From contig JAVCCR010000003.1 of NCBI GenBank assembly GCA_030765485.1, forward strand, positions 4,653 through 68,652: a stretch of 64,000 nt of DNA, in the 5' to 3' direction. The position numbers and the translations under genes are program-made. The notes under the pieces are model-generated. The model was not told the DNA's origin and did not search any database. It worked only from the letters and a program-made list of their open reading frames with translations. This document shows positions 14,227-36,141 of this stretch, piece by piece. Position 1 is the first letter of the stretch, and every line of letters starts with the position of its first letter. The stretch is from Candidatus Gygaella obscura (lineage in GTDB: Bacteria > Omnitrophota > Gorgyraeia > Gygaellales > Gygaellaceae).

Positions 14227-14241
14227 TTAGGAGGTTTAAAT

Positions 14242-20753: not shown

Positions 20754-21719
20754 ATGAGCGGACTTGATTTTGAAAAACCAATTCTGGAATTAGAAAAAAA
20801 GATTGATGAACTGAGGAATTTTACAAGCGATAAGAAAATTAATCTTGCTTCTGAAATAAACCGTCTTGAGGAAAAATTAACCAGGCTTAAAAAAGATACC
20901 TACCGCAATATTACTCCCTGGCAGCGCGTACAGATTGCCAGACACCCGCAGCGACTTTACACCACTGATTACATAAATACGATAATGAAGAATTTTATTG
21001 AGTTGCATGGAGATCGTTTATTTGCCGACGATAAGGCTTTAATCGGAGGGTTGGCAACATTAGATGATAGAAAAGTTGTTGTTATGGGTCATCAAAAAGG
21101 ACGTGAAACCAAAGAAAGTATTATGCGTAATTTCGGTTGTGCTCATCCTGAAGGATACCGCAAGGCCTTAAGGTTGATGTATATGGCGCAGAAATTTAAT
21201 CTTCCGATTATTGTTTTTATCGATACCCCCGGAGCATATCCTGGTATTGGTGCTGAAGAAAGAGGTCAGGCGCAGGCAATAGCTTCTAATCTTATGGAGA
21301 TGGTAGAGATAAAAGTACCTATAATCGTTACTGTAATCGGTGAAGGCGGTTCAGGCGGCGCTTTAGGTGTGGGTATAGGAGATAAGATTTTGGTGTTGGA
21401 GAATTCTTATTATTCGGTTATTTCTCCTGAGGGGTGTGCAGCAATTCTTTGGAAAAGCAGCACCAAAGCGCCAGAGGCAGCTGATGCATTAAAGCTTACC
21501 GCAGAAGATTTACTAAAATTTAAGATTATTGATGAGATTGTACCCGAACCTTTAGGTGGAGTGCATAGGGATCCGCAGAAGATGTGTCAGACGCTTAAAG
21601 AAGCTATCATCAGGAATCTAAATTCTTTATCCGACTTATCTACAAAACAAATTCTGGATAGAAGATATAATAAGTTCAGAAAAATCGGCGACATAACTGA
21701 AAACGTACAAGATGCTTAA
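20754..21719 (+). CDS. accA: Acetyl-CoA carboxylase carboxyltransferase alpha subunit
   Basis: 321 aa with the conserved AccA core (…FIDTPGAYPGIGAEERGQAQAIA…GEGGSGGALG…). Confidence 0.85.
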   Translation: MSGLDFEKPILELEKKIDELRNFTSDKKINLASEINRLEEKLTRLKKDTYRNITPWQRVQIARHPQRLYTTDYINTIMKNFIELHGDRLFADDKALIGGLATLDDRKVVVMGHQKGRETKESIMRNFGCAHPEGYRKALRLMYMAQKFNLPIIVFIDTPGAYPGIGAEERGQAQAIASNLMEMVEIKVPIIVTVIGEGGSGGALGVGIGDKILVLENSYYSVISPEGCAAILWKSSTKAPEAADALKLTAEDLLKFKIIDEIVPEPLGGVHRDPQKMCQTLKEAIIRNLNSLSDLSTKQILDRRYNKFRKIGDITENVQDA

Positions 21720-22236
21720 TCAAGAGTTTATCATTTTAGGCCTGTTAAAGTCCGGTCCTCGCCATGGTTATGAAATCAAAAAAGAGCTAAAAGAAGTAGT
21801 TGGTTTATTTGCTACCATAACCAATAAGTCTATATATTATCCTTTAAAACAGATGGAAAAAGCAAAGGTGGTGAAAAAGAATATTTCTCGTGAGGGCTCT
21901 CGTCCTGAGAAATACACGTATACAATTACAGAGCAAGGAGAAAGAAGGTTTAAGGATCTTTTGTATAAGAATATCTCACGGCTTGAGCGGCCATTTTTCG
22001 ACATTGATATGTGTCTCTATTTTCTTCCCTTTTTGTCAAAAACTGAAGTTGTTAAAAGATTAAAGGTAAGGCTGAGGCTGCTTTCCAAGATAGAAAATTG
22101 GCTTAAGAAACAAGCTGGGCAAAAAGAAAAATACTACCCGCATCTTTCAGCAATAATCGAGCATAATCTTGATTTGATCATTTCTGAAACAGGTTTTACC
22201 AAAAAGCTAGTTAATAGATTAAGTAAGAATAAGTAG
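21712..22236 (+). CDS. PadR-family transcriptional regulator
   Basis: N-terminal PadR winged helix (ILGLLKSGPRHGYEIKKEL…YYPLKQMEKAKVV). Overlaps the accA stop. Confidence 0.7.
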   Translation: MLNQEFIILGLLKSGPRHGYEIKKELKEVVGLFATITNKSIYYPLKQMEKAKVVKKNISREGSRPEKYTYTITEQGERRFKDLLYKNISRLERPFFDIDMCLYFLPFLSKTEVVKRLKVRLRLLSKIENWLKKQAGQKEKYYPHLSAIIEHNLDLIISETGFTKKLVNRLSKNK

Positions 22237-22302: not shown

Positions 22303-22330
22303 TTGAAGATTTTTATTTTCCTTATATAAT
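22303..22330 (+). promoter_or_regulatory. Sigma70-type promoter of the 22367-33310 operon
   Basis: TTGAAG at 22303-22308, a 16-nt spacer, and a perfect TATAAT at 22325-22330. Confidence 0.45.
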
Positions 22331-22366: not shown

Positions 22367-23863
22367 ATGGACATAGCAAAACTTTTACAGGAATCAACAG
22401 ATAAGTATAAAGATAAGCCGGCAATATTTTTTAAGGGCAAAGAAATTACTTTTATTGAGTTAAGGGATAATGTGTTTAAGCTGACAAATGCCCTAGGCTC
22501 TTTAGGCCTAAAAAAACATGATAAGGTTGCTATATATCTTCCTAATTGTCCACAGTATATCTATACCTATTTGGCTATTTGGTGTAGTTGCGCCACGGCA
22601 GTACCGTTAGATTTTATGCTTACCGAAGAGGAGCTTATATCTTGTATAGACCACTCAGAAGCTAAAATTATTATTGCAAAGAAAAAGTCTAGGGTGTCTT
22701 TTTCTGATATAAAAAATAAATGTAAGTTGCTTCAAGAAGTAGTTCTTTTAGACGAGGGTGAAGAATTTGTCAATTTCAATATACTTTTAAATAATGTAAA
22801 AGAAGATTATCCTAAGGCTGAATGCAGTGATAAAGACTACTCTATAATTTTCTATACCTCCGGAACAACCGGGAAACCTAAAGGGGTTTTGATAAATTAT
22901 GCTCAGATAGCAGCACCGGCTATGGGGATGAAACATTTCGTGGGGCTTAATGATAAAGATATTGCGCTTTGTGCGATTCCTTTATCTCATTTGGGCGGGT
23001 TGGTGTTTTTGCAGTCAATAATCTTTTTAGGAACAACTGTTGTGTTGATGGAACGTTTTATGCCGGTTGAATTTTTAAAAAATATTACCGAGTATAAAGT
23101 AACCTGTTTTTGGATAGTGCCATCGATGTATTATGCGATTTTACAGCTTAAGGAATTTGAAAGTTATGATTTATCAAGTCTTCAATGGGTGGTTTCTTTT
23201 GGTGCGCCGAGCTCTGCAGAACAATTGAGGCGTTTTCACAAATATTGCCCGCAGGCTGAGTTTGTCAATGGTTGGGGAATGACTGAAACTAATGCGCCAA
23301 GCGTGGTGATTCCAAAAGGTAGTAAAAAGCTAGAAAGCGTTGGGCTTCCTGCTCCTTGGGTTGAACTTAAGATATTAGATAGCAATAATAAGGAAGTTAA
23401 AAAAACAGAAGTAGGAGAAATTGTTGTCAAAGGATGGGTGGTTACCGATGGCTATTATAAGGATGATGAGCTTACTAAACAGACCAAGCGTAATGGTTGG
23501 TTTTATACAGGAGATCTGGGTAGACTTGATACTGAAGGTTACCTGTATATATGTGGCCGCAAGAAAGAGATGATTAAAGTAGGAGGAGAAATAGTTTTTG
23601 AACCTGAGGTTGAGGCTGCTTTACATAAACATCCTGCTGTTAGCGAAGTGGCTGTAATTGGGGTGAAAGACAAATTAAGGACAGAGGTGCCTAAGGCCTT
23701 TATTGTTTTAAAAGAAGATACGCAGTTTGCAGAAGAAGAAATAGTATTTTTTCTAAAAAAGCATCTGGCCCATTTTAAGATTCCGCATTATTTTGAAGTT
23801 TTGGATACTCTTCCCAAGACCAGATCAGGTAAAGTTGATAAAAAAGTTTTAAGAGACAGATAA
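22367..23863 (+). CDS. AMP-dependent synthetase/ligase (acyl-CoA synthetase family)
   Basis: 498 aa with the AMP-binding motif YTSGTTGKPKGV, a GWGMTET motif, and the conserved C-terminal Lys of this family. Confidence 0.75.
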   Translation: MDIAKLLQESTDKYKDKPAIFFKGKEITFIELRDNVFKLTNALGSLGLKKHDKVAIYLPNCPQYIYTYLAIWCSCATAVPLDFMLTEEELISCIDHSEAKIIIAKKKSRVSFSDIKNKCKLLQEVVLLDEGEEFVNFNILLNNVKEDYPKAECSDKDYSIIFYTSGTTGKPKGVLINYAQIAAPAMGMKHFVGLNDKDIALCAIPLSHLGGLVFLQSIIFLGTTVVLMERFMPVEFLKNITEYKVTCFWIVPSMYYAILQLKEFESYDLSSLQWVVSFGAPSSAEQLRRFHKYCPQAEFVNGWGMTETNAPSVVIPKGSKKLESVGLPAPWVELKILDSNNKEVKKTEVGEIVVKGWVVTDGYYKDDELTKQTKRNGWFYTGDLGRLDTEGYLYICGRKKEMIKVGGEIVFEPEVEAALHKHPAVSEVAVIGVKDKLRTEVPKAFIVLKEDTQFAEEEIVFFLKKHLAHFKIPHYFEVLDTLPKTRSGKVDKKVLRDR

Positions 23864-23877
23864 AAGAGGGTTTAGCT

Positions 23878-24624
23878 ATGATGCAAAGAGAAATTCATAT
23901 TAGTTCTAAAGATTTATTGAGTCAAATCCAGTTTAAATCAAAACCTATGGCTGATATTGCTTTAGTCAGCGGTCAGATTCACCGAGTAGAGTTTTGTCTG
24001 CAGCTATTGACCGAGGTAAAAGAGAATTTTAGTACTATGGGATATACTTTTTGGACCGGAAAATATAAAGGTCGAAGTATTACTGTTGGTAATGCCGGTC
24101 TCTATGCACCAGATACGGCATTAGTGACACAGTTATTGATAGAAGCAGGGATAAATTCTTTTATTCGTATCGGTAGCTGCGGTGCTTTGACAAAGGATAT
24201 ACAGATAGCTGATTTTGTTATTGCTGATAAAGCTTTAAGAGGAGACGGCGTTACTAATTATTATGTTAAGAGTGATTTTATTCCTAAGTCTACGCCTGAG
24301 TTAAACAGCCGGTTAGCTGAAGCAATTATCTCCAAAGGAAAAAAGTTACATCAAGGTATGGTTTGGACAACAGATGCATTATTAAAAGAAACTCCTGAAT
24401 TTGTGAATCCGGCAATTACTAAAGGCGCAATAGCAGTAGATATGGTTACGAGCGCTTTTTTAACACTATGTTCTTTATATAATAAAACTTCAGCTGCGGT
24501 AATGGTGGTAAGCGATAATCTTATTACTGGTGAAGTTGATTTTACTTCGCCTGCGGTTATGGAATCGGAAAAAATAATGTTGGCTTCTAGTTTAGACGTA
24601 GCAGCGCAATTAGGAAATAGTTAA
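23878..24624 (+). CDS. Nucleoside phosphorylase, PNP/UDP family 1 (DeoD/Udp/MTA-phosphorylase-like); candidate MTA/5'-deoxyadenosine phosphorylase
   Basis: 248 aa with the NP-I family pattern (…GNAGLYAPDTA…IRIGSCGAL…). Sits directly upstream of an MtnA-family gene. Confidence 0.65.
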   Translation: MMQREIHISSKDLLSQIQFKSKPMADIALVSGQIHRVEFCLQLLTEVKENFSTMGYTFWTGKYKGRSITVGNAGLYAPDTALVTQLLIEAGINSFIRIGSCGALTKDIQIADFVIADKALRGDGVTNYYVKSDFIPKSTPELNSRLAEAIISKGKKLHQGMVWTTDALLKETPEFVNPAITKGAIAVDMVTSAFLTLCSLYNKTSAAVMVVSDNLITGEVDFTSPAVMESEKIMLASSLDVAAQLGNS

Positions 24625-25533
24625 ATGACTGAATCAATACTTGCATTACCGGTTAGGTTTAAAGGAAATTATATAGAGGTTTTAGATGAGACGCTCCTTC
24701 CTTTTAATGAAAAGTATATACGGGTAGATACATTAGAGTATGCTTTATCGGTTTTAGGTTCTATGAAAACAAGAGCAATGGGTCAGGTGCTTTTATTTTT
24801 TTACTCTTGTGTGCTTTTTGAAAAGAACAATTCAATTGATGAAATTGCAGGTAAATTCAAAGATATACGGCCTACATTTGATTTTATTCTTTTAGCGGAT
24901 CTAGTGAAAAAGGCTCTTGCAAAAGAAAAGAGCATAAAAAGCGCGGTAGAAAGTTTTATAAATGGTTTTCAAGATGCAAGACATAAAAGAGCTAAATCAT
25001 TAGCGTCGATATTGCCTGATGATGCGCGTGTTCTTACAATATGTAATGTTAATTCCGAGCTTATCTATCTGGCTGAGGAAATGCACAAGTTAAATAAGAA
25101 GATATTTTTTTATGTCTGTGAAACACGGCCATATCTTCAGGGAACGCGGCTTACTTTTTGGGAATTAAGAAAACGAGGTATTTCTTGTAAATTGATCTGT
25201 ATATCTCAATCTGCCAGTCTTATGCAGGAAGGTTCAATTAGTACAGTTATTACCGGAGCAGACAGATCCAGCACGAGAGGTGCAGTGATAAACAAAATCG
25301 GTACATATAGCCTGGCAATACTTGCCAAACATTTTAATATTGCTTTTTATCCTTTGGTGCAGTATGCGAAGGATATTGATATAGACGCAATTAAAATCGA
25401 AGAAAGAGCAAAGAGTGAAGTGTTTATGTTTTTAAAAGGGGATTTTGCCCACATGGATGCGCTTTACCCCGCGTTTGACGTTGTAGAAAAAGAATTGATT
25501 ACAAAAAACATAGATTTAACCAAATTAAACTAA
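24625..25533 (+). CDS. eIF-2B alpha/beta/delta-family protein, MtnA-like (methylthioribose-1-P / 5-deoxyribose-1-P isomerase family)
   Basis: 302 aa with eIF2B/MtnA family patterns (LDETLLP…, YVCETRPYLQGTRLT.WEL, VITGADRSS..GAVINKIGTYSLAILAKHFNIAFY). Starts 1 nt after the phosphorylase stop. Confidence 0.65.
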   Translation: MTESILALPVRFKGNYIEVLDETLLPFNEKYIRVDTLEYALSVLGSMKTRAMGQVLLFFYSCVLFEKNNSIDEIAGKFKDIRPTFDFILLADLVKKALAKEKSIKSAVESFINGFQDARHKRAKSLASILPDDARVLTICNVNSELIYLAEEMHKLNKKIFFYVCETRPYLQGTRLTFWELRKRGISCKLICISQSASLMQEGSISTVITGADRSSTRGAVINKIGTYSLAILAKHFNIAFYPLVQYAKDIDIDAIKIEERAKSEVFMFLKGDFAHMDALYPAFDVVEKELITKNIDLTKLN

Positions 25534-25545
25534 TTATAAGGAGAA

Positions 25546-27009
25546 ATGATGAAACTATTATTTTTAAATCCGCCAATCGGTTCATGGGTTTATTGGGGTA
25601 AACATAGAGCTATTAATGTTGCCCATGCTCAACTTACTGCTTGTATCAGAGAGTGGGTTAAAGAAGTAGATATTTCAGTTATTGACTGTCGTGCTTCGGA
25701 ATTGAAAGAAGAACAGATGATAGATAAAATTAAACAGATTTCACCCGATGTTATCTATATGGGCGATGCTTATCAGATGACTGGGACTGTTGCCATATTG
25801 CCGCTTTATCAAAAGGCTGCAAAACTTATTAAGAAGAACTTTCCCAATGTAAAAATCTGCGTAGGAGGTTTTTATATTGCAGCAAATTATGCAGAAATCT
25901 CAAAAGAAAGCCCTGATTTTGATTTTATTATTTCCGGAGAAGTAGACCTGACCTTGACCGAGCTAATACAGGCTTTAAAGAATAACGAGAAAGATTTTTC
26001 TAAAATCAAAGGCCTGCTTTATCGGGATAACGGTTCTTTTAAGACAAACGAGTACCGTGAGCTGATTAAAGATTTGGATACGCTTCCTATGCCGGCGTAT
26101 GATTTGTTTCCGATGGATAAATATATTGGTTATGGTTCAATGCCGTTTTATCAGGAGATTTTTACTGCCAGAGGCTGTCCTTTTGGCTGCGGCATGTGTA
26201 TAGATTGGGTTATAGTTGACCCAAGAGGTAACTGCGACTGGCAGCAGCATAGGTTTAAGTCTGCAGCCAGAGTCGTAGATGAGATGGAGCTACTTTTAAC
26301 TAAATACGGCAAAAAATATATCCATATATTCGATTTGAATTTTAACCCTGTTAGACGGCGCGTGGAAGAGTTCTTAAAAGAAATGCAGAAGAGAAAACTT
26401 CCCATAAAATATGCCTTTTTAGGCAATGCCCATTCCTTTGTTAGAGATAAGGATTTACTGAAAGATTTACGCGATACAGGGTTTGTCTGCGGTATATTCG
26501 GTCTTGAAGTGGAAGATGCTGAGACTCTGAAGAAAATCAAAAAAGGCATTACGGTGCAAAACGTGCATGAGGTTACCCAGTTATTTAGGGAATTAGGGAT
26601 TATGTCTACGATTACCTGGATGATTGGTTTTCCTGATGATGATGAAACTAAGATAAAAAGGCGTTTTGCAGTCTTAGATGAGATTGATCCTGATGTCTCA
26701 TCGCTTCAAATGATGCTTCCTGTTCCGGGTATACCTTTGTACGATGAATTTTCTCCATACGTGGAAGAGCATGATTTGATGAAGTGGGATTTTCATCATC
26801 CTATAGTTAGGACCAAGCATCTTACGCGCCAGCAGTTGGGTCAGTTAGCCGAATGGGCAAACAGAGAGTTTTACACTAAGAAAAACCGTATTCAGCGCAT
26901 CTTGGAAAGCAAGACCTTACATGAATATCCTAAGAATATATTCAAAAGTTATATGTTTAACTTAGAGAAATTCGCTAACGCAGCAACTAAAGAAGAGATT
27001 ATTATTTGA
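25546..27009 (+). CDS. Cobalamin (B12)-binding radical SAM enzyme
   Basis: 487 aa. N-terminal Rossmann-like B12-binding domain (…VIYMGDAYQMTGT…ICVGGFY…), then the radical SAM cluster motif CPFGCGMC (CxxxCxxC), then a C-terminal extension of the DUF4070 type. Confidence 0.8.
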   Translation: MMKLLFLNPPIGSWVYWGKHRAINVAHAQLTACIREWVKEVDISVIDCRASELKEEQMIDKIKQISPDVIYMGDAYQMTGTVAILPLYQKAAKLIKKNFPNVKICVGGFYIAANYAEISKESPDFDFIISGEVDLTLTELIQALKNNEKDFSKIKGLLYRDNGSFKTNEYRELIKDLDTLPMPAYDLFPMDKYIGYGSMPFYQEIFTARGCPFGCGMCIDWVIVDPRGNCDWQQHRFKSAARVVDEMELLLTKYGKKYIHIFDLNFNPVRRRVEEFLKEMQKRKLPIKYAFLGNAHSFVRDKDLLKDLRDTGFVCGIFGLEVEDAETLKKIKKGITVQNVHEVTQLFRELGIMSTITWMIGFPDDDETKIKRRFAVLDEIDPDVSSLQMMLPVPGIPLYDEFSPYVEEHDLMKWDFHHPIVRTKHLTRQQLGQLAEWANREFYTKKNRIQRILESKTLHEYPKNIFKSYMFNLEKFANAATKEEIII

Positions 27010-27028
27010 TTTTAAGAAAGTTACGCAT

Positions 27029-27520
27029 TTGAAAATCGATAATTTAAAAGAATCCATATTGGTTTGGGGCACATTATCCGATGAGGCGCTTATGTATTTA
27101 AAACAGCCCCAGAAAGATAACGCCTTAAACGTTATCGTTGCTGAGAATAGGCCATTTCTTTTAGGGATAAAATATAATGTCCTTAAGCTAAACAAGGAAA
27201 ATATTCCTTTTGTGTATTGTACGGATAACATGCTGGGGTTTTTATTTTATAGAAAGAAAATCTCTCAGGTGGTTATCTGCTATAAGAAAAAAGAAAAAAA
27301 GTCTCTGTTGGCAGATTCAGGAAGTCTTTTTGCTGTATTATTAGCAAAATTGCACAATGTAAAAGTTAGAGCTTTCCCGCAGGGAAATTTGGATTATTCA
27401 ACTTTAGATAAAAACAGCGCCACGCTTGATGGTAAAGCAATGCTTTTAGATGAGGATAAAGACTTTGTACAAGAAACAAAGGATGAATTAATAAAAGAGG
27501 AGTTTTATGAACATAACTGA
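27029..27520 (+). CDS. Degenerate MtnA/eIF2B-family paralog (C-terminal-half fragment lacking the GADR catalytic segment); possible pseudo-enzyme or gene remnant
   Basis: 163 aa with a TTG start. Retains family-like segments (…VAENRPFLLG…IPFVYCTDNMLGFLF…VVICYKK…LFAVLLAKLHNVKV.AF), but the GADR…NKIGTY core is replaced. Confidence 0.4.
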   Translation: MKIDNLKESILVWGTLSDEALMYLKQPQKDNALNVIVAENRPFLLGIKYNVLKLNKENIPFVYCTDNMLGFLFYRKKISQVVICYKKKEKKSLLADSGSLFAVLLAKLHNVKVRAFPQGNLDYSTLDKNSATLDGKAMLLDEDKDFVQETKDELIKEEFYEHN

Positions 27521-28496
27521 GCTTAAGAAACAGATAATCTATTGGGCTAGGCTTTTAAACGAGAGAGGTTTTGTTACAGCAAGAAGCGGTAATATTTCCT
27601 GTAGGTTAGAGGATAAGATTCTTATGACTAGTCACGATTCTTATTTAGGACAGTTAGAAGAGGATGAGATTGTTTTACTGGATTCAAAAGGAGCGATTAT
27701 AGAAGGAGAAAAAGAACCCACCAGCGAAAAGCCGCTTCATCTGGGGATTATGGAACATATTGATGAGGCAAAAGTGATTATACACGCACACAGCCCATTT
27801 ACCACTGCGTATTTTCATTATTTTAAAAAACTGGATATTTTTTCTTTTGAGGCTAAGTTTTATTTAGGAGAGATTAAGGTTATTCCGCAGTCTGGGCCTA
27901 CGGTTACAGATATAAATCCGGTAATTGAAGAGTTGATGAATAATAATATTGTTGTTTTAGGCAATCACGGCGTAGTTGCAATCGGTAAGGATTTTAAAAG
28001 TGCATTTAGTTTGGTCGAGCTTCTAGAAGAACAGTCCAAGATAAATTTGATGTTTTCTGGCAAGACTAAGGATTCTCCTTGCGTTGAAGAAGATAAACAA
28101 CAGATAGAGCATGTAGAAAAATCCTATTTCATGTTTTCACAGGAGCATATTCAAACAATAAAAGATATTATAAATAATGATACGCAGGCACAAGAGTTGG
28201 GTAAAAAGCATGATTTGACTTGTTCGCTTTGTGTTAAGGATATTGATGCCAAACAAGCAGTTTGTTTTTATTACCAGCAAGGCAAAATTACTAATACTGA
28301 TAATAATCCAGAAGCCGAATTTATTATTGCCGGTTCAACAGACATATTAAAGAAGATCTTTAACTGTAAAATTGACCCCTTTGTAGCTGTTACACAAGGT
28401 AAAGTTAAAACCAAAGGTGATATTAATAAAATCAGCCAATGGTATCCGGCACTTACTAGGACATTTAAACTTTGGGAACAGGTAAAAGTGGTTTAG
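27507..28496 (+). CDS. Class II aldolase/adducin-domain protein (Ald2/MtnB-like) fused to a C-terminal SCP2-like lipid-binding domain
   Basis: The N-terminal ~200 aa show the class II aldolase pattern (…VTARSGNIS…, Zn ligands in IIHAHSP…, …GNHGVVAIG). The C-terminal ~110 aa resemble SCP2 (…FIIAGSTDILKKIF.CKIDPFVAVTQGKVKTKGDINKI…). Overlaps the upstream ORF by 14 nt. Confidence 0.7.
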   Translation: MNITELKKQIIYWARLLNERGFVTARSGNISCRLEDKILMTSHDSYLGQLEEDEIVLLDSKGAIIEGEKEPTSEKPLHLGIMEHIDEAKVIIHAHSPFTTAYFHYFKKLDIFSFEAKFYLGEIKVIPQSGPTVTDINPVIEELMNNNIVVLGNHGVVAIGKDFKSAFSLVELLEEQSKINLMFSGKTKDSPCVEEDKQQIEHVEKSYFMFSQEHIQTIKDIINNDTQAQELGKKHDLTCSLCVKDIDAKQAVCFYYQQGKITNTDNNPEAEFIIAGSTDILKKIFNCKIDPFVAVTQGKVKTKGDINKISQWYPALTRTFKLWEQVKVV

Positions 28497-28540
28497 CGGT
28501 ATTTTAAGATTAATTTATTTACTGCAGGAATATATAAATA

Positions 28541-30892
28541 ATGAAAATTCTCGCCATAAGGTTTGCCCGGTTTATTATTAAATTCAGGCTTGTTTTTTTG
28601 GTTGCTTTTACTCTTATTTCAATATTTTTTTTTCAGGTTATAAAAGATATTACGTTTCAGACTGATATCGATGATTTTTATCCGCAGAAGCATCCCTTTG
28701 TTACTGTTCAGAATAAGCTCACCCAGGTTTTTGGTGGGATAAATCAGGTTTCCATTGCCCTAAAAGTAAAAGAAGGCGATATCTTAAATAGTGATACGCT
28801 TGAGAAGGTAATCCGTATTACCAATGAGCTGTATCTTATGGATGGGATAAACCTCGGACGGGTTACTTCTTTATCTGCCCGTAAGATAAAACACATCAAG
28901 GCAACAGAAGACGGGTTTTCCATTGACCGCGTATTAAGACAAGTGCCAAAAGATGAGCTGGAGATGATGGCATTACGAGATAGGATTGTTTTAAGTCCCA
29001 ATGTCTATATCCGTATGGTTTCGCAGGATTTTCAAAGTACGCTTATTCAGGCAGATTTTCAAAAAGGGGTGTCTTCAAAATATATCTTTGATAAGCTGCA
29101 GCAAATAAAACTTCAGGAAGAAAACGCCAATACGCAGATATTTTTAGCCGGTAGACCCATCCTTGAAGGTTGGCTTAATACATATCTGCCTAAGATGTTA
29201 AAGATACTTCTTTTGACTCTTTTGGTGGTTTCACTTATATTGTTTTTTACGTTTCGTTCCAAAAGAGGCGTATTCTTGCCGCTATTAGATTCATCTATGG
29301 CTACATTATGGGGTTTGGGAATGATGAAGCTTTTTGGCTTCAGGCTTGATCCAACAACAATACTGGTTCCATTTTTGATCCTGGCTTTAGGTATCAGCCA
29401 TTCGATTCATTTTATGAAGCATTATTATGAGGAGATGAAGCAAGAAAATAGAAAATCCAAGCATGCTGTACGCAGAACTCTGGAGGTATTATTTGTTCCG
29501 GCAATCACCGCAGTTATTACAGATGGGTTTGGTTTTTTAAGTTTGGCTTTTATTCCTTTAGATACTATTCGCAGTATGGCTCTGGCTGCAGGTTTTGGAA
29601 TTTTTAGCAATTTTCTTACTTCATTTATTTTTACGCCCTGTCTGATTTCTTATATGAAACCTCCCAAGGTGCTTGAGGTAGCCCGCGAAGAAGAACATCT
29701 TTTGATTGATAAACTCTTGTCACGGGTGGCGAATATTTCAACGCATAAGAGAACACGCGTGGTGTTAAGTTTAGTGTTTATATCAATCGTGGCCGTATCT
29801 TTATTTGGAATAAACAAGATTGTCGTTGGAGATAACTCTTTTGGCTCAAGCCATCTTTATCCCAACAGCCCCTATAATAAAAGTGACAAGTTTATAAATG
29901 ATAATTTCGGAGGCACTAATTCCTATTATGTGTTAGTTGACGGCCAAACAGAGGATAGCCTTATTGATTTAGATGCGCTTAAAAAAATCGATTCCCTCCA
30001 GCATTATATACTAAAGAATGTAAAAGAAGCAGGATACGCGGTATCTGTTTCTGATTATGTAAAGGGGTTAAACTTTGCTATGTTTTCCGGTGATAGAAAC
30101 TATTATAGGCTTCCGGAAAAAAGTCAAACCGTTGCTGAATATCTATTTCTTTATGAGATCTCGACTTATCCTGGAGATTTTGAACCAGTGATAACCGCTG
30201 ATTACTCCAAGGCGAATATAAAGTTTGATCTTAAAGACCATAGGCCTTCGACAATAGATAATGTTATTGCTAAGACAAGGCAGTGGATAGATGAGAATAT
30301 GTCTAAAGATGATGTCTTAAAGTTTGAATATGCTGCTGGTGAAATTGGAATGTTGGCGGCAATAAATGATATTATTGCCAAAAGCATAATTCCCAGCATC
30401 ATTTTTATATCAGCTTTAATTTTCGTATATATTTCCTACATATTCGGTTCTGTCAGCGCAGGGTTATTGTTATTGGTGCCGCTACTATTTAGTATTTTAG
30501 TTGTATTCGGGCTTTTTGGTTTAACGGGTATGCCTTTAACAACCGAGACTTTATCTTTAGCAGCATTAAGCGAAGGCCTAGGGATAAATTATGGCATATA
30601 TGTTATCACGCGGCTTTTCCAGGAGGTTAGGCGCAGGAAGCACCCTTCTTATGAAGAGGCATTAAAGGTAACCCTAGTTACATCTGGTAAGGCTGTATTT
30701 TTTAGCGGAATGATTGTTTCAATTGGAATTTTCGTGTGGCTGTTTTCTGATATCCGTCTGCAGGCAAGACTGGGAGTAACTTTAGGAGTTACTTTAATTA
30801 TAAACATGATAGCTGCACTTGTGATTCTACCTTTATTAATATTACTGGTGAAGCCGAAGTTTATTTTTGATATAGAAAAGTTTAAGTATTAA
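28541..30892 (+). CDS. MMPL/RND-superfamily exporter (HpnN-like, sterol-sensing-domain type)
   Basis: 783 aa with two blocks of about six TM helices, each preceded by a soluble periplasmic domain, and an SSD-like block (…FLILALGISHSIHFM…). Confidence 0.75.
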   Translation: MKILAIRFARFIIKFRLVFLVAFTLISIFFFQVIKDITFQTDIDDFYPQKHPFVTVQNKLTQVFGGINQVSIALKVKEGDILNSDTLEKVIRITNELYLMDGINLGRVTSLSARKIKHIKATEDGFSIDRVLRQVPKDELEMMALRDRIVLSPNVYIRMVSQDFQSTLIQADFQKGVSSKYIFDKLQQIKLQEENANTQIFLAGRPILEGWLNTYLPKMLKILLLTLLVVSLILFFTFRSKRGVFLPLLDSSMATLWGLGMMKLFGFRLDPTTILVPFLILALGISHSIHFMKHYYEEMKQENRKSKHAVRRTLEVLFVPAITAVITDGFGFLSLAFIPLDTIRSMALAAGFGIFSNFLTSFIFTPCLISYMKPPKVLEVAREEEHLLIDKLLSRVANISTHKRTRVVLSLVFISIVAVSLFGINKIVVGDNSFGSSHLYPNSPYNKSDKFINDNFGGTNSYYVLVDGQTEDSLIDLDALKKIDSLQHYILKNVKEAGYAVSVSDYVKGLNFAMFSGDRNYYRLPEKSQTVAEYLFLYEISTYPGDFEPVITADYSKANIKFDLKDHRPSTIDNVIAKTRQWIDENMSKDDVLKFEYAAGEIGMLAAINDIIAKSIIPSIIFISALIFVYISYIFGSVSAGLLLLVPLLFSILVVFGLFGLTGMPLTTETLSLAALSEGLGINYGIYVITRLFQEVRRRKHPSYEEALKVTLVTSGKAVFFSGMIVSIGIFVWLFSDIRLQARLGVTLGVTLIINMIAALVILPLLILLVKPKFIFDIEKFKY

Positions 30893-30908
30893 AAAACAGG
30901 AGGGGAGC

Positions 30909-31805
30909 ATGAGGAGTTTGTTGATGAAGAGTTTGTTGTTAGTGTGTTGTGTTTTTGTTTTTGTTGTTAATGGTTTTGCTATGGAGTTTAAGCAGCATGA
31001 GGTTTATAAGATCACTGATGGTATGAACGCAGAAGAAATCATAGGGGTGTCTACTTTTAATAAATATACCAAGTTTGCCTATGATTATGAGTCAACCGGA
31101 TATGTCCACCTGATTGAAAAAAGCGGGGCAAAGAGACAAAGAACTTTTTTACGCCGCAGGATTATTTTGGGGGATAAGTTAGCCAAAATTGATTATAAGG
31201 ATGTTACCAGTTTCACTGCTCCCACATCAGTTAAGGGTTTAGGTATTTTAAGTTGGACCTATATGACCTATGGGCAGGATTCGGATCAGTGGTTATGGAT
31301 CCCATCACTTAAGAAAATTCGTAAGGTTTCAGCTGCTCAAGGTGATGATTCTTTTATGGGTTCAGATTTTACCACAGAAGAAGTCACCACAAGAAAAGTA
31401 GAGGATGAGACCTACAAATTATTAAGGCAAGAAAAGTTCACCGGCTATACATCAAGTTTTAATGGTAAAATCTATTATAAGGATGCAGATTGTTTTGTTA
31501 TAGAGGCAACTCCTGTAAGAGATCCTTGGTATTATTCTAAAAGAATCGTCTGGGTGGAAAAAACTACAGGTGGCGATATCTATGAAGAGATTTATGACGC
31601 TAATGGCAGGAAATATAAATATATCCTTAAAGAATACCAGATTAAAGACGTTAATGGACGCGACTATTCAGTGCAGACGCATCTTGAGGTAGAGGACCTG
31701 CGTTCGAATCACAAGACTGTCATTGAAATAAAGGGTATCAAGTTTGATCAGGGTCTAAAAGAGAGTGACTTTAGTGAAAGAATCCTGCAGAGGTCAAAAT
31801 GGTAA
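30909..31805 (+). CDS. LolA-like outer-membrane lipoprotein-sorting-family protein
   Basis: 298 aa with a signal peptide and a beta-rich body typical of the LolA-like proteins commonly encoded next to MMPL exporters. Confidence 0.55.
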   Translation: MRSLLMKSLLLVCCVFVFVVNGFAMEFKQHEVYKITDGMNAEEIIGVSTFNKYTKFAYDYESTGYVHLIEKSGAKRQRTFLRRRIILGDKLAKIDYKDVTSFTAPTSVKGLGILSWTYMTYGQDSDQWLWIPSLKKIRKVSAAQGDDSFMGSDFTTEEVTTRKVEDETYKLLRQEKFTGYTSSFNGKIYYKDADCFVIEATPVRDPWYYSKRIVWVEKTTGGDIYEEIYDANGRKYKYILKEYQIKDVNGRDYSVQTHLEVEDLRSNHKTVIEIKGIKFDQGLKESDFSERILQRSKW

Positions 31806-31819
31806 TAAAAGGAGTAAGT

Positions 31820-33310
31820 ATGAGGAAGAAAATTGTTTTATTTATAATCTTAGTGTTTGTGGTTTTGGGTGTAACCATGAATAGTTATGCTCAAATGGAT
31901 CAGGCGTTTGTCTATGAAGCATTGCGCAAAGTCTTGCCTTTTGAAAAACTAGAGATGGCCGGGTACTTAAAAAACGAGACATCTCTTAAGATGGCGCATG
32001 GCATGGATGAATTTATGAAGTTTAAGAATATTGTTAACTTGCAGGCTAATTACAATATTAAAGATAATGTTGATTTTTTTACCACGATTAGGTGGTTCCA
32101 TGATGGAGTCTATAGTCTGGAAGAGTCTAGATATACATCGATTGATTCCAAGGAGAAAAATCGGAAACTCAAATTCCCTGAGAAGATGCTTTGGTTAAGG
32201 GATTGCTTTGTGGATATCTATACAGATAGATTGGATATCCGTGCCGGTAAACAGCAGGTTGTCTGGGGTACAGCAGATGGGATCAGAATATTAGATATGA
32301 TCAATCCTTTAGATTACAGCGAGTGGACTTTGCCGAATTACTCTGATATCAGGATTCCTTTATGGATGCTTAATATTGAAGGTGAACTTTTAGCAGACGG
32401 ACATTTGCAGGTTTTATTGATTCCTGATTATCAGGCTAATTATTACGGCCCGGTAGGAGGTCCGTTTACCTTAAGGACGGTGGAATTGGGCGCAAAAAGC
32501 CTTAATGCTTTGCCGCCATTTGTTACTACAACAACAATAAGTGAGCGTCCTAAGCGCAATTTTGAGAATACAAAGCTAGGGCTTCGCTGGCGTAATGTTA
32601 TTGGCGCAGGTTACGCTCAGGGGTTAGAATACACGCTTAATTATTATCACGGTTATGATTTTGCATCTGCAGCCTATACTGCAGTAAAAATTGTTCCCGG
32701 AGGATACTTTAAGTTGACCCGTAGAGCAGAGGGAATTGATGTCTTTGGCGGAACGTTTTCTAAAACTGTTACAAACGGTGCGTTTGGTATTCCTGCACTT
32801 TTTAAGGGTTGGACTGTAAGAGGCGAGTATGCCTGGATTACGCATGGAGCAATGAATTATGGAACTGATGCCAATATCGTAGGTACTGTAGATGTGGATC
32901 AGTTTAATTATGTTTTAGGTTTTGATAAGAATTTTTGGACCAATTGGCTTTTTAGTTTTCAGTTTATCCAGATGAACGCTAAGGAAACTGAGGAGTTCAA
33001 TAAGGATTCCTACGTTTTATTAAATGGCGCTACCCGTGGTTCATTAGGAGATCAGGAAACAACCCTAAGTCTTAAAATTTCAACTGATTTTATGCATGAG
33101 AGAGTCAAGCCGGAAGTTTTAATTCTTCATACGGTCGGCAGTGAGAAATCCGACCGAGATTGGAGGATAAGCCCGAAAGTCAGTTTTGAAATCAATGACC
33201 GCTGGCAAATAGCGGCCGGAGCGCATATCTTTGAGGGAGAGGAACAGCTTTTAAGCGGTCAGTTTGATAAAAACGACCAGGTATTCTTTGAGACAAAGTA
33301 TAGTTTCTAA
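31820..33310 (+). CDS. Putative outer-membrane beta-barrel protein (DUF1302-like)
   Basis: Signal peptide, alternating amphipathic beta pattern rich in aromatics and Gly, and a C-terminal ...YSF. Start placed at the ATG following the AAGGAG SD; the ORF extends to 31799 in frame and overlaps the upstream gene. Confidence 0.45.
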   Translation: MRKKIVLFIILVFVVLGVTMNSYAQMDQAFVYEALRKVLPFEKLEMAGYLKNETSLKMAHGMDEFMKFKNIVNLQANYNIKDNVDFFTTIRWFHDGVYSLEESRYTSIDSKEKNRKLKFPEKMLWLRDCFVDIYTDRLDIRAGKQQVVWGTADGIRILDMINPLDYSEWTLPNYSDIRIPLWMLNIEGELLADGHLQVLLIPDYQANYYGPVGGPFTLRTVELGAKSLNALPPFVTTTTISERPKRNFENTKLGLRWRNVIGAGYAQGLEYTLNYYHGYDFASAAYTAVKIVPGGYFKLTRRAEGIDVFGGTFSKTVTNGAFGIPALFKGWTVRGEYAWITHGAMNYGTDANIVGTVDVDQFNYVLGFDKNFWTNWLFSFQFIQMNAKETEEFNKDSYVLLNGATRGSLGDQETTLSLKISTDFMHERVKPEVLILHTVGSEKSDRDWRISPKVSFEINDRWQIAAGAHIFEGEEQLLSGQFDKNDQVFFETKYSF

Positions 33311-33320: not shown

Positions 33321-33359
33321 AAAAAAAGACCCCGCCTATTAATTTAAGCGGGGTTTTTT
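33321..33359. terminator. Bidirectional rho-independent terminator
   Basis: A7-ACCCCGC-(12 nt loop)-GCGGGGT-T6, sitting between convergent genes that end at 33310 and 33375. Confidence 0.6.

Positions 33360-36065: not shown

Positions 36066-36141
<76 letters not shown>

What the first reader, a model, noticed from the sequence alone, without database searches (positions are those of the whole stretch)
25546..27009. B12-binding radical SAM enzyme embedded inside a 5'-dAdo/MTA salvage-like gene set
The CPFGCGMC cluster motif, an N-terminal cobalamin-binding Rossmann region and a DUF4070-type tail define a class B radical SAM enzyme, a class that typically methylates unactivated carbon or phosphinate substrates. 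It sits between an MtnA-like gene and a degenerate MtnA-like fragment, so the salvage genes appear to have been recruited around it, possibly by duplication of mtnA. The substrate is unknown. Candidates suggested by the neighbours are a lipid or acyl chain (ligase, SCP2, MMPL) or a nucleoside-derived metabolite.
Basis: partly seen in the sequence, partly recalled or inferred. Interest (0 to 1): 0.6.

Follow-up and report, generated by a model that had tools for sequence, protein, structure and literature searches.

The report
Radical SAM enzyme with nucleoside-dismantling operon
A vitamin-B12-type radical enzyme of unknown function sits in a single operon with three enzymes able to take apart the adenosine by-product (or an adenosine adduct) of such enzymes, plus lipid-handling and export proteins. 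The same gene set recurs in several phyla of uncultured anaerobes, and I found no paper that describes it.

Summary
Window 25546-27009 encodes a 487-aa radical SAM (rSAM) enzyme with CPFGCGMC and an N-terminal Rossmann domain. Its predicted fold matches cobalamin-type rSAMs (CysS, OxsB, TokK, TsrM). It is BchE-like but fails the BchE and HpnJ family cut-offs, and no DUF4070 tail was detected.

It lies in a tight 11-kb operon:
- acyl-CoA ligase
- MTAP-like phosphorylase
- MtnA-like isomerase
- the rSAM
- a short IF-2B paralogue
- a class II aldolase fused to SCP2
- HAE3 RND pump, LolA-like protein and DUF1302 barrel

The "degenerate mtnA fragment" is not decay. It is a conserved subunit that lacks the catalytic residues, and in one relative it is fused to the isomerase. 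The rSAM/isomerase pair/aldolase-SCP2 core, usually with an aldehyde dehydrogenase, recurs in 16 related loci from Omnitrophota, Thermodesulfobacteriota, Desulfofervidus and Fibrobacterales. In several Omnitrophota it lies inside a type II polyketide supercluster.

The enzyme logic equals the DHAP shunt and the fluoroacetate pathway: 5'-X-5'-deoxyadenosine gives DHAP plus X-CH2-CHO.

My best reading (about 0.4) is that X is a hydrophobic group attached by the rSAM, extended by two carbons to an acyl-CoA. The main rival (about 0.35) is dedicated salvage of plain 5'-deoxyadenosine. No literature on this cluster was found.

The parts
21712..22236 (+). PadR-family transcription regulator, directly upstream of the operon. 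Likely its regulator (inferred).
   Evidence: Pfam PadR E 1.1e-15. Conserved at the same position in L005 at 90% identity.
22303..22330 (+). Best sigma-70-like promoter match, in the 130-nt gap before the ligase gene.
   Evidence: TTGAAG-16-TATAAT, 10 of 12 matches. This is a consensus match only; the number of such sites in the region is no higher than in shuffled sequence.
22367..23863 (+). AMP-forming acyl-CoA ligase of the FadD/MenE type.
   Evidence: Pfam AMP-binding E 1e-84. Best NCBIfam hit is the long-chain-fatty-acid--CoA ligase model PRK06187, 446 bits (cut-off 476). The acetate--CoA ligase model gives only 256 bits against a cut-off of 729. Orthologues occur in L005, L020, L002 and L025.
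23878..24624 (+). Hexameric-PNP/MTAP-like nucleoside phosphorylase.
   Evidence: Pfam PNP_UDP_1 E 4.7e-35. Best PDB match is S. solfataricus MTA phosphorylase 1JDS, E 1.6e-26. The G..R, R-x-G-S-C-G and S-D-N motifs are conserved. The E-M-E ribose motif reads D-M-V in all cluster orthologues.
24625..25533 (+). MtnA-like (IF-2B family) aldose-ketose isomerase for a ribose-1-phosphate-type substrate; the catalytic subunit.
   Evidence: IF-2B E 3e-40. MtnA models score 160 and 149 bits, below their cut-offs of 271 and 279. Aligns with MtnA structures 1T9K and 2YVK. The catalytic Cys (T-I-C-N) and Asp (G-A-D-R) are retained in all 11 orthologues.
25546..27009 (+). BchE-like radical SAM enzyme with a B12-binding-type N-terminal domain: the finding itself. 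The B12-type domain spans about 25663-25965 and the CX3CX2C motif lies at 26176-26199.
27029..27520 (+). Short IF-2B paralogue (163 aa, TTG start), conserved and lacking the catalytic residues. Probable partner subunit of the isomerase.
   Evidence: IF-2B E 5.7e-9. Present in all related clusters. The catalytic Cys and Asp positions read W-G and C/F-Y-K/Q, while E-x-R-P and D-N-M/T/V are kept. It is fused to the long isomerase in the 467-aa ORF of L021. It overlaps the next gene by 14 nt.
27507..28496 (+). Class II (metal-dependent) aldolase (aa 1-185) joined by a disordered linker (aa 188-203) to an SCP2 lipid-binding domain (aa about 210-325).
   Evidence: Pfam Aldolase_II E 1.1e-34. Pfam SCP2 27.7 bits, above the 21.3 cut-off. 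Best PDB sequence match is 6BTD/6BTG, the B. thuringiensis 5-deoxyribulose-1-P aldolase DrdA. The Zn His triad and catalytic Glu are conserved. AF2 pLDDT is 91 and Foldseek TM is about 0.8 to FucA/DrdA. The SCP2 part aligns weakly to the SCP2-like domain of sec-alkylsulfatase.
28541..30892 (+). HAE3/MMPL-type RND inner-membrane transporter.
   Evidence: Pfam MMPL E 6.7e-36 plus sterol-sensing domain. TIGR00921 (HAE3) gives 203 bits and HpnN 83 bits, both below cut-off.
30909..31805 (+). Secreted LolA-like / DUF1329-like periplasmic protein.
   Evidence: Pfam LolA_like E 4e-43 and DUF1329 E 3.4e-11. The N-terminal signal sequence is visible in the translation.
31799..33310 (+). DUF1302 protein, a predicted outer-membrane barrel; last gene of the operon.
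   Evidence: Pfam DUF1302 E 5.1e-24. It has a signal sequence. A G+C-rich hairpin lies at 33329-33354 just downstream. AmeA of Castellaniella is the DUF1302 outer-membrane partner of an HAE3 pump.

Best explanation
The operon 22367-33310 encodes a pathway in which the rSAM (25546-27009) uses the adenosyl part of SAM as a building block.

Proposed sequence (steps 2-4 are inferred from homology and retained catalytic residues; steps 1, 5 and 6 are hypothesis; nothing was assayed):
1. The rSAM joins the 5'-carbon of the 5'-deoxyadenosyl radical to a hydrophobic substrate X. This would give a 5'-X-5'-deoxyadenosine, as HpnH does with diploptene and MqnE with its benzoate substrate.
2. The MTAP-like phosphorylase removes adenine with phosphate, giving 5-X-5-deoxyribose-1-phosphate.
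3. The MtnA-like isomerase, working with its short non-catalytic partner, makes the ribulose-1-phosphate.
4. The class II aldolase, whose flexibly tethered SCP2 domain holds the hydrophobic tail, cleaves it to DHAP plus X-CH2-CHO.
5. An aldehyde dehydrogenase oxidises the aldehyde to X-CH2-COOH. This gene is in nearly all related clusters but missing from this window. The FadD-like ligase then makes X-CH2-CO-CoA.
6. The HAE3 pump, LolA-like protein and DUF1302 barrel move the hydrophobic substrate or product across the envelope. PadR regulates the operon.

The net result would be an oxygen-independent two-carbon extension of a hydrophobic molecule, paid for with one SAM.
For: (1) The phosphorylase, isomerase and aldolase keep their catalytic residues. 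Their best solved relatives are the enzymes of 5'-deoxynucleoside dismantling: S. solfataricus MTAP, MtnA and DrdA.

(2) The same four-step logic (PNP, isomerase, aldolase, then aldehyde dehydrogenase) is an established biosynthetic route from a 5'-substituted 5'-deoxyadenosine: 5'-fluoro-5'-deoxyadenosine to fluoroacetaldehyde plus DHAP in S. cattleya (PMC6079011). That the aldehyde dehydrogenase step then gives fluoroacetate is from my own knowledge.

(3) rSAM enzymes that add the adenosyl radical to a carbon substrate, followed by a PNP-family enzyme that removes adenine, are known: HpnH/HpnG and MqnE (PMC13459092).

(4) The aldolase is fused through a disordered linker to a highly conserved SCP2 domain. 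Only about 30 full-length two-domain representatives exist among 1.84 billion cluster representatives.

(5) An aldehyde dehydrogenase follows the aldolase in 14 related loci. It scores higher on betaine-, aminobutyr- and phenylacetaldehyde dehydrogenase models than on the acetaldehyde model.

(6) The ligase is FadD/MenE-like, not acetyl-CoA synthetase-like. L022 carries two ligases plus a carrier protein.

(7) HAE3 + LolA-like/DUF1329 + DUF1302 sets handle hydrophobic compounds (PMC6394551).

(8) The core is syntenic across phyla in 16 loci besides the window.

(9) L018 and L019 add a Zn-dehydrogenase and an LsrF-type thiolase (354 bits, above the 297 cut-off). By chemical inference, these could convert the same pentulose-1-phosphate to DHAP plus an acyl-CoA.

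(10) All three sugar enzymes fall below the equivalog cut-offs of the housekeeping families. They are therefore specialised paralogues.
Against: - No class-B-type or BchE-like rSAM is known to adenosylate a substrate. HpnH and MqnE have different architectures.
- BchE-like chemistry (multi-step oxidation) would consume several SAM per turnover and release plain 5'-deoxyadenosine. That alone could justify a dedicated salvage set.
- The isomerase/aldolase/ALDH module accompanies three different rSAM subfamilies. In the L025/L021 supercluster one module serves two rSAMs, as expected for handling a common by-product.
- The Omnitrophota PKS-type clusters L018, L019, L023 and L024 have no phosphorylase gene next to the module.
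- The window itself lacks the aldehyde dehydrogenase.
- SCP2 could serve another role, such as delivering the rSAM's lipid substrate or docking.
- No substrate X is identified.
- Nothing here was tested biochemically.
Confidence: 0.4

Rival explanations
1. Dedicated by-product salvage. The rSAM performs BchE-like oxidation, methylation or cyclisation on a lipid or polyketide and releases ordinary 5'-deoxyadenosine, possibly several per turnover. The phosphorylase, isomerase and aldolase are a private DHAP shunt. They convert this inhibitory by-product to adenine, DHAP and acetaldehyde, and the aldehyde dehydrogenase detoxifies the acetaldehyde. The ligase and the RND/LolA/DUF1302 proteins deal with the rSAM's own lipid substrate or product.
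For: - The trio matches the phosphorylase-type 5-deoxyribose/DHAP shunt, and DrdA is the best solved match for the aldolase.
- DHAP-shunt function for 5'-deoxynucleosides is established (PMC12632272 and PMC10986504).
- All three rSAM subfamilies are BchE-like (193-214 bits).
- One module serves two rSAMs in L025/L021, and the module pairs with different rSAM subfamilies.
- L018/L019 carry an LsrF-type thiolase and a Zn-dehydrogenase. By inference, these could turn 5-deoxyribulose-1-P into DHAP plus acetyl-CoA.
Against: - It does not explain the conserved SCP2 fusion on the aldolase.
- It does not explain the non-catalytic second isomerase subunit.
- It does not explain why one rSAM family among the dozens in an anaerobe would need private salvage genes in at least four phyla.
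- It does not explain why all three sugar enzymes are divergent paralogues below the housekeeping cut-offs.
- The ligase is not acetyl-CoA-synthetase-like.
Confidence: 0.35
2. The module runs in the synthetic direction. The ligase, plus an aldehyde-forming enzyme, supplies a fatty or aryl aldehyde. The aldolase-SCP2 condenses it with DHAP to a long-chain ketose-1-phosphate, which the isomerase and phosphorylase convert to a lipid-tailed sugar or nucleoside. The rSAM then modifies that product, as HpnJ or OxsB act on sugar or nucleoside moieties. The HAE3/LolA/DUF1302 system exports it to the outer membrane.
For: - Class II aldolases and purine nucleoside phosphorylases are reversible (general knowledge).
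- The ALDH gives weak LuxC-family hits.
- An aldehyde:ferredoxin oxidoreductase with its own tungsten/molybdenum cofactor genes sits in the L025/L021 supercluster.
- HpnN-like HAE3 pumps export hopanoids.
- HpnJ is the second-best family match.
Against: - The ALDH matches NAD(P)-dependent, acid-forming aldehyde dehydrogenases, not acyl-CoA reductases.
- There is no precedent for such a lipid.
- It is a more complicated account of the same genes.
Confidence: 0.1
3. The rSAM is an ordinary cobalamin-dependent C-methyltransferase of a lipid (HpnR/HpnP-like or ladderane-type), and the neighbouring genes are functionally unrelated passengers.
For: - Class B architecture.
- Weak matches to HpnR (91 bits) and the ladderane-type lipid rSAM (70 bits).
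Against: - Synteny of rSAM with the isomerase pair and aldolase-SCP2 in 16 loci from several phyla argues for functional coupling.
- So do the 0-19 nt gaps and the overlap around the rSAM gene, and the gene fusion in L021.
- BchE and HpnJ score far above the methylase models.
Confidence: 0.08

Closest known systems
DHAP shunt / 5-deoxyribose salvage (MtnP or DrdK, MtnA/DrdI, Ald2/DrdA)
   Same: It uses the same three reaction types in the same order: phosphorolysis of a 5'-deoxynucleoside, ribose-1-P to ribulose-1-P isomerisation, and class II aldol cleavage to DHAP plus an aldehyde. DrdA is the best solved match of the aldolase. Catalytic residues are conserved.
   Different: All three enzymes score below the family cut-offs. 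The isomerase has an extra non-catalytic subunit. The aldolase carries an SCP2 domain. The genes are interleaved with a B12-type rSAM, an acyl-CoA ligase, usually an aldehyde dehydrogenase, and an envelope-spanning hydrophobe transporter. Known shunt clusters are stand-alone three-gene sets, in some genomes with sugar transporters.
Fluorometabolite pathway of Streptomyces cattleya (fluorinase, PNP FlB, isomerase, aldolase, fluoroacetaldehyde dehydrogenase)
   Same: It is a biosynthetic use of the same chain: a group installed on C5' of SAM's adenosine is carried through PNP, MtnA-like isomerase and fuculose-phosphate-type aldolase to X-CH2-CHO. The route as far as the aldehyde is cited. The dehydrogenase step to X-CH2-COOH and the enzyme names are from my own knowledge.
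   Different: Here the enzyme acting on SAM is a radical SAM protein, not a nucleophilic halogenase. X is unknown and probably hydrophobic. The operon also has a CoA ligase, SCP2 and an exporter.
HpnH/HpnG (hopanoid side chain) and MqnE/MqnB (futalosine pathway)
   Same: An rSAM adds the 5'-deoxyadenosyl radical to a carbon substrate, and a PNP_UDP_1-family enzyme then removes the base. In hopanoids the substrate is a lipid and an HAE3 pump (HpnN) exports the product.
   Different: HpnH and MqnE are not B12-domain rSAMs. The window's phosphorylase is not HpnG (38 bits against a cut-off of 187). Hopanoid and futalosine pathways keep the ribose carbons or remove them differently, with no MtnA-like isomerase or class II aldolase. 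No shc or hpn genes lie in the window.
BchE (anaerobic Mg-protoporphyrin IX monomethyl ester cyclase) and HpnJ
   Same: These are the best-scoring curated families over nearly the full length (BchE 205 bits, E 1.6e-60; HpnJ 140 bits). They share the B12-domain + rSAM architecture.
   Different: The scores are far below the trusted cut-offs (481 and 578). There are no bacteriochlorophyll or hopanoid genes nearby. Hosts annotated as Omnitrophota, Thermodesulfobacteriota and Desulfofervidus are, to my knowledge, not phototrophs.
AmeABCD-type HAE3 transport cassettes (Castellaniella; Pseudomonas DUF1302/DUF1329/RND sets)
   Same: An HAE3 RND pump, a LolA-like/DUF1329 periplasmic protein and a DUF1302 outer-membrane protein are encoded together and linked to hydrophobic compounds.
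   Different: No BNR/COG4447 fourth component is present. Here the cassette is co-operonic with cytoplasmic enzymes.

Membership tests
Class B (cobalamin-dependent) radical SAM enzymes | CX3CX2C motif binding the SAM-cleaving [4Fe-4S] cluster | tested here: met
   CPFGCGMC at aa 211-218. All three Cys are invariant in 61 homologues.
Class B (cobalamin-dependent) radical SAM enzymes | N-terminal Rossmann-type cobalamin-binding domain preceding the rSAM barrel | tested here: met
   Pfam B12-binding E 3.2e-7, 30.6 bits, just under the 32.1 gathering score. The AF2 model has a five-stranded Rossmann domain. Foldseek matches CysS, OxsB, TokK and TsrM over both domains at TM 0.63-0.75.
Class B (cobalamin-dependent) radical SAM enzymes | Actual binding and use of cobalamin | not testable with these tools
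   AprD4, also among the top fold matches, has this domain but to my knowledge does not use cobalamin. No cobalamin riboswitch lies in the window.
BchE (TIGR02026 equivalog) | Score at or above the curated cut-off of 481 bits | tested here: not met
   205.4 bits. Paralogous subfamilies score 193-214 bits.
BchE (TIGR02026 equivalog) | Bacteriochlorophyll biosynthesis gene context | tested here: not met
   No bch genes appear in the 64-kb window or in any related locus.
HpnJ (TIGR03471) | Score at or above 577.6 bits, and a hopanoid gene neighbourhood | tested here: not met
   140 bits. No shc/hpn genes in the window. The phosphorylase scores 37.6 bits on HpnG (cut-off 187) and the pump 82.6 bits on HpnN (cut-off 752).
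DUF4070-tailed B12 rSAM proteins | C-terminal DUF4070 domain | tested here: not met
   No hit at E <= 10. HMMER filters may hide very weak matches.
DHAP shunt / 5-deoxyribose salvage | Nucleoside phosphorylase with a phosphate-binding site and catalytic Asp | tested here: met
   G..R, R-x-G-S-x-G and S-D-N are conserved. Best PDB match is MTAP 1JDS. The ribose motif E-M-E is altered to D-M-V.
DHAP shunt / 5-deoxyribose salvage | MtnA/DrdI-type isomerase with catalytic Cys and Asp | tested here: met
   T-I-C-N and G-A-D-R align to Cys160 and Asp240 of B. subtilis MtnA (residue roles from my own knowledge; alignment).
DHAP shunt / 5-deoxyribose salvage | Class II aldolase with a Zn His triad and catalytic Glu | tested here: met
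   H-A-H, N-H-G and T-S-E are conserved. DrdA 6BTD is the best sequence match.
DHAP shunt / 5-deoxyribose salvage | Equivalog-level similarity to characterised MtnP/DeoD, MtnA and FucA/MtnB models | tested here: not met
   deoD 106 bits against 232; salvage_mtnA 149 against 279; FucA_Meth 117 against 250.
DHAP shunt / 5-deoxyribose salvage | Substrates are 5'-deoxyadenosine or MTA | not testable with these tools
   Needs enzyme assays.
SCP2 lipid-transfer domain | Pfam SCP2 match above the gathering score, with an alpha/beta SCP2 fold | tested here: met
   27.7 bits against a 21.3 cut-off. Confident AF2 alpha/beta domain at aa 212-323. Weak sequence match to the SCP2-like domain of sec-alkylsulfatase, E 0.013. 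Ligand binding was not tested.
AmeABCD-type HAE3 cassette | HAE3 RND + DUF1329/LolA-like + DUF1302 + BNR/COG4447 protein | tested here: inconclusive
   Three of the four components are present. No BNR protein is in the operon. The HAE3 model TIGR00921 gives 203 bits against a cut-off of 352.

The most novel reading that the evidence does not exclude
A previously unknown oxygen-independent carbon-chain extension. A B12-domain rSAM enzyme attaches the 5'-carbon of SAM's adenosyl group to a hydrophobic molecule (a lipid, hydrocarbon or polyketide intermediate). A dedicated phosphorylase, a two-subunit isomerase and an SCP2-tethered aldolase then trim the ribose away as DHAP. This leaves a -CH2-CHO handle that is oxidised and CoA-activated. 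In some Omnitrophota the product would serve as an unusual starter or tailoring unit for a type II polyketide synthase.
Probability: 0.3. Interest if true: 0.9.

Novelty: new variant of a known kind. Interest (0 to 1): 0.68.

Why it matters
BchE-like B12-domain rSAM genes are, to my knowledge, common in non-phototrophic anaerobes, and I know of no assigned function for them there. Here one such family is locked, across phyla, to a complete nucleoside-dismantling chain whose aldolase carries a lipid-binding domain.

If the adduct model is right, it would add a third natural use of "SAM's adenosine as a C2 donor", after fluoroacetate and futalosine, and the first to act on hydrophobic substrates. 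It would be a new anaerobic way to functionalise unreactive carbon, and would bear on the lipid or polyketide metabolism of Omnitrophota, which to my knowledge are uncultured.

If the salvage model is right, it would be the first case I am aware of in which a 5'-deoxyadenosine shunt is dedicated to, and co-evolves with, particular rSAM enzymes. It would also carry a new two-subunit isomerase.

Either way the hypothesis is directly testable with four or five recombinant proteins.

Tried and rejected
- **Exact-sequence look-up of the rSAM:** not on record.
- **Metagenome scan with the aldolase-SCP2 as a single sequence:** only one short locus.
- **Riboswitch search:** no cobalamin or SAM riboswitch, only two tRNAs in the window.
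- **Promoter and terminator scans:** not above shuffled expectation.
- **Literature searches** (DUF1302 + radical SAM + aldolase; B12 rSAM + MtnA + SCP2; 5-deoxyribulose + LsrF; Omnitrophota + polyketide + radical SAM): nothing on this cluster.
- **The ORM2 benzene 'Magic' and 'Nanopod' clusters:** they surfaced through DUF1329 but are different gene sets.
- **BchE, HpnJ, HpnG and HpnN orthology:** rejected on curated cut-offs.
- **'Pseudogene fragment' reading of 27029-27520:** rejected because of its conservation and the fusion in L021.
- **'Recent mtnA duplication':** rejected.
- **P0363** (a truncated B12-type rSAM joined to a truncated aldolase-SCP2): considered as a Rosetta-stone fusion, but set aside as a probable chimera because both domains are cut.
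- **Active-site pockets:** I could not inspect them, because model coordinates are not returned.
Full report
**1. What is at the coordinates**

Window 25546-27009 (+) is a complete ORF of 487 aa.
- It carries CPFGCGMC at aa 211-218 (nt 26176-26199). This is a canonical CX3CX2C motif.
- Its three Cys are the only invariant cysteines among 61 homologues, so no auxiliary Fe-S cluster is indicated.
- Pfam finds Radical_SAM (E 7.8e-13) and a B12-binding domain at aa 40-140 (E 3.2e-7, 30.6 bits, just under the 32.1 gathering score).
- An AlphaFold2 model built on the 61-sequence alignment is confident (pLDDT 93, pTM 0.92) and starts with a five-stranded Rossmann domain.
- Foldseek against the PDB aligns it over both domains with CysS, OxsB, MgmA, TokK, AprD4 and TsrM (E 1e-18 to 1e-21, TM 0.63-0.75, 15-18% identity).
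- By sequence, only CysS and TokK are detectable in the PDB, at about 1e-12.

So the class B architecture is real, and the enzyme is far from any solved structure. The claimed DUF4070 tail was not found even at E <= 10.

**2. Which characterised family**

The best NCBIfam match is BchE (205 bits, E 1.6e-60, nearly full length), then HpnJ (140 bits), ApyD, P-methylases, HpnR and BzaD. All are far below their trusted cut-offs (BchE 481, HpnJ 578). The window and all related loci lack bch or hpn genes.

**3. The operon**

Genes from 22367 to 33310 are all on the + strand. Gaps run from -14 to +44 nt, and a 130-nt gap with the best promoter-like site precedes the first gene. The order is:

| Coordinates | Product |
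|---|---|
| 21712-22236 | PadR regulator (upstream of the operon) |
| 22367-23863 | FadD/MenE-like acyl-CoA ligase |
| 23878-24624 | PNP/MTAP-like phosphorylase |
| 24625-25533 | MtnA-like IF-2B isomerase |
| 25546-27009 | the rSAM |
| 27029-27520 | short IF-2B-like protein, 163 aa |
| 27507-28496 | class II aldolase fused to SCP2 |
| 28541-30892 | HAE3/MMPL RND pump |
| 30909-31805 | LolA-like/DUF1329-like secreted protein |
| 31799-33310 | DUF1302 outer-membrane protein |

The flanks are housekeeping genes of a diderm bacterium: Mur ligase, MnmE, AcrB/TolC, AccA, LeuRS, SecA, Lnt and LpxL. The closest public relative is a Candidatus Omnitrophota MAG with the same gene order (rSAM 94% identical; L005).

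**4. Are the 'salvage' enzymes functional?**

- *Phosphorylase.* It matches Sulfolobus MTA phosphorylase best (1JDS, E 1.6e-26). It keeps the phosphate-binding Gly/Arg and R-x-G-S-x-G motifs and the catalytic S-D-N Asp. The E-M-E ribose motif is D-M-V in every cluster orthologue.
- *Long isomerase.* It aligns with MtnA structures 1T9K and 2YVK and keeps the catalytic Cys (T-I-C-N) and Asp (G-A-D-R) in all 11 orthologues.
- *Aldolase domain.* It keeps the FucA-type Zn His triad and Glu. Its best solved sequence match is 6BTD/6BTG, the Bacillus thuringiensis 5-deoxyribulose-1-phosphate aldolase DrdA (identity of 6BTD confirmed in PMC6079011).
- *Family cut-offs.* All three score well below the equivalog cut-offs of the housekeeping families. 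They are a specialised set of paralogues.

**5. The 'degenerate fragment'**

The 163-aa ORF corresponds to the C-terminal Rossmann core of IF-2B proteins. It lacks both catalytic residues: W-G replaces the Cys motif, and C/F-Y-K/Q replaces G-A-D-R. It keeps E-x-R-P and D-N-M/T/V. It is present with the same length and start in every related cluster.

In L021 it is fused in frame to the long isomerase as a single 467-aa protein. It has no significant BLASTP similarity to the long isomerase of the same operon (E 0.77). It is therefore an old, conserved, non-catalytic partner subunit, not a decaying duplicate.

**6. Conservation elsewhere**

Counting loci with rSAM, long and short IF-2B and aldolase-SCP2 together gives 16 besides the window. 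L015 is cut at the rSAM, so its long isomerase lies off the contig. L021 is the same region as L025. The loci are:
- Omnitrophota: L005, L015, L018, L019, L023.
- Metagenome contigs with the same PKS-type gene order as L019 and L023, probably Omnitrophota (no taxon label returned): L024, L021/L025.
- Thermodesulfobacteriota: L006, L008, L011, L012, L013.
- Desulfofervidus: L020.
- A contig labelled Methanoperedenaceae and its intact twin: L002, L003.
- Fibrobacterales: L022.

An aldehyde dehydrogenase follows the aldolase in 14 of these loci. It is absent from the window and from L005.

Phosphorylase orthologues share contig lengths with aldolase-SCP2 hits in at least 11 further cases, which suggests that they lie on the same contigs.

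A profile search of 1.84 billion cluster representatives finds only 81 hits at E <= 1e-30, and about 30 full-length two-domain representatives. The fusion is a small, distinct family.

Solo copies of the rSAM also exist. Two of them are 86% identical paralogues of a cluster copy within the same MAG (L007/L013, L009/L008).

**7. A wider picture**

In several Omnitrophota the isomerase pair, aldolase-SCP2 and aldehyde dehydrogenase sit in one operon with:
- a second BchE-like rSAM subfamily, 37-45% identical to the window's;
- an Amidohydro_2 protein and a class IV aminotransferase;
- a complete type II polyketide synthase set: KS, CLF, ACP, two cyclases, KR and MFS.

This arrangement is seen in L019, L023, L024 and L021.

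L025 and L021 overlap by 7,425 nt at 100% identity. Together they form one supercluster of about 35 kb. It begins with ligase, phosphorylase and a third BchE-like rSAM, the same front end as the window. It ends with the fused isomerase, aldolase-SCP2 and aldehyde dehydrogenase.

L018 and L019 add a Zn-dehydrogenase and an LsrF-type 3-hydroxy-5-phosphonooxypentane-2,4-dione thiolase (354 bits against a cut-off of 297). By chemical inference, oxidation of C4 of a 5-deoxypentulose-1-phosphate gives exactly the LsrF substrate type. Thiolysis would then yield DHAP plus an acyl-CoA. That is a second route with the same outcome as aldolase + dehydrogenase + ligase.

**8. Mechanism**

Inferred from homology and retained catalytic residues (not assayed): the operon encodes phosphorolysis of a nucleoside, ribose-1-P to ribulose-1-P isomerisation, and aldol cleavage to DHAP plus an aldehyde. 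This is the DHAP shunt (PMC6079011). It is also the back end of fluoroacetate biosynthesis, where the group placed on C5' of SAM's adenosine ends up as X-CH2-CHO.

Inferred: what X is.
- *Adduct model, about 0.4.* The rSAM attaches the adenosyl C5' to a hydrophobic substrate, as HpnH and MqnE do (PMC13459092). This explains the SCP2 tether on the aldolase, the near-universal aldehyde dehydrogenase, the FadD-like ligase, the hydrophobe transport cassette (PMC6394551), the divergence of the sugar enzymes, and the link to a PKS that could use X-acetyl-CoA.
- *Salvage model, about 0.35.* X = H. BchE-type chemistry consumes SAM stoichiometrically, and the module removes the inhibitory 5'-deoxyadenosine. 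This fits the BchE-likeness, the sharing of one module by two rSAMs, and the module's pairing with three rSAM subfamilies. It leaves SCP2, the second isomerase subunit and the ligase type unexplained.
- *Minor rivals.* A synthetic-direction pathway making a lipid-tailed sugar or nucleoside (about 0.1). A plain lipid methylase with unrelated neighbours (below 0.1).

**9. Known or new**

I found no paper on this cluster. A 2026 review of lipid-modifying rSAM enzymes mentions neither an aldolase nor SCP2.

Relative to known systems, this is a new variant of the 5'-deoxynucleoside-dismantling pathway. It is interleaved with a BchE-like B12-domain rSAM, has a two-subunit isomerase and an SCP2-fused aldolase, and is coupled to an HAE3/LolA-like/DUF1302 cassette. 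If the adduct model holds, it would be a new kind of anaerobic C2 extension.

**10. Limits**

All functional statements rest on homology, conserved residues, synteny and fusions. No substrate is identified. Cobalamin use cannot be judged from sequence. Whole-genome checks for additional salvage genes could not be run.

Noticed in passing
L025 8364-20744 joined to L021 1-21479 (7,425-nt overlap at 100% identity): A supercluster of about 35 kb on a JGI metagenome contig. Gene order: ligase, phosphorylase, BchE-like rSAM, two small ORFs, aldehyde:ferredoxin oxidoreductase, ApbA-like reductase, duplicated TIGR04076 protein, type II PKS set (KS, CLF, ACP, two cyclases, MFS, KR), Amidohydro_2, a second BchE-like rSAM, class IV aminotransferase, tungstate/molybdate transporter and Moco genes, fused IF-2B isomerase, aldolase-SCP2, aldehyde dehydrogenase.
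   Followed up: partly
L019 1-14346; L023 1-12447; L024 1-12439; L004 1307-11488: A type II polyketide synthase operon is conserved in Omnitrophota with small genomes (1.3-2.0 Mb in L004, L019 and L023). It is always next to a BchE-like rSAM and an Amidohydro_2 protein. Its product is unknown.
   Followed up: partly
L018 12836-14712; L019 11061-12899: An LsrF-type thiolase (above the NCBIfam cut-off) and a Zn-dehydrogenase lie beside the aldolase-SCP2. They could form a thiolytic alternative that turns a 5-deoxypentulose-1-phosphate into DHAP plus acyl-CoA.
   Followed up: partly
L021 18098-19501: The long catalytic and short non-catalytic IF-2B proteins are fused into one 467-aa ORF.
   Followed up: yes
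window 23878-24624 and its orthologues: The ribose-binding E-M-E motif of hexameric PNP/MTAP enzymes is D-M-V in all nine cluster phosphorylases. This hints at an altered sugar or 5'-substituent pocket.
   Followed up: no
L007 and L009 (=L001) versus L013 and L008: Two Thermodesulfobacteriota MAGs each carry a second, solo copy of the rSAM, 86% identical to their cluster copy, in unrelated neighbourhoods.
   Followed up: partly
P0410 (551 aa) and P0363 (694 aa): P0410 is a full class II aldolase domain of this clade fused to a SPASM-type rSAM. P0363 joins a truncated B12-type rSAM to a truncated aldolase-SCP2 and is probably a chimera or a deletion.
   Followed up: partly
L002 (LR991655.1, labelled Methanoperedenaceae) 7658-17694: Here the cluster has the pump, the long isomerase and a LolA-like gene each split into two ORFs, and carries a 23S_rRNA_IVP-family ORF. 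A 98%-identical (ALDH) intact copy is in L003. Diderm-type DUF1302 and LolA-like genes on a contig labelled as archaeal suggest mis-binning, transfer or sequencing frameshifts.
   Followed up: no
L011 1505-4810 (-) and L013 1907-5263 (-); L011 19956-20735 and L013 17761-18603: In Thermodesulfobacteriota the cluster is flanked by a divergently transcribed 1,100-aa adenylate-cyclase/AAA_16/TPR (STAND-type) regulator and, downstream, a DUF2284 metal-binding protein. L011 also has a second PNP_UDP_1 gene at 546-1184.
   Followed up: no
window 56065-58269 (-): A 734-aa protein with a spermidine-synthase domain. To my knowledge such enzymes release MTA, so this genome may need a 5'-deoxynucleoside disposal route.
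   Followed up: no
window 8663-11494 (+) and 36189-37407 (+): A 943-aa ORF and two smaller ORFs have no Pfam match.
   Followed up: no
window 33788-33870 (-) and 36066-36138 (+): Two tRNA genes, the only Rfam matches in the window.
   Followed up: no
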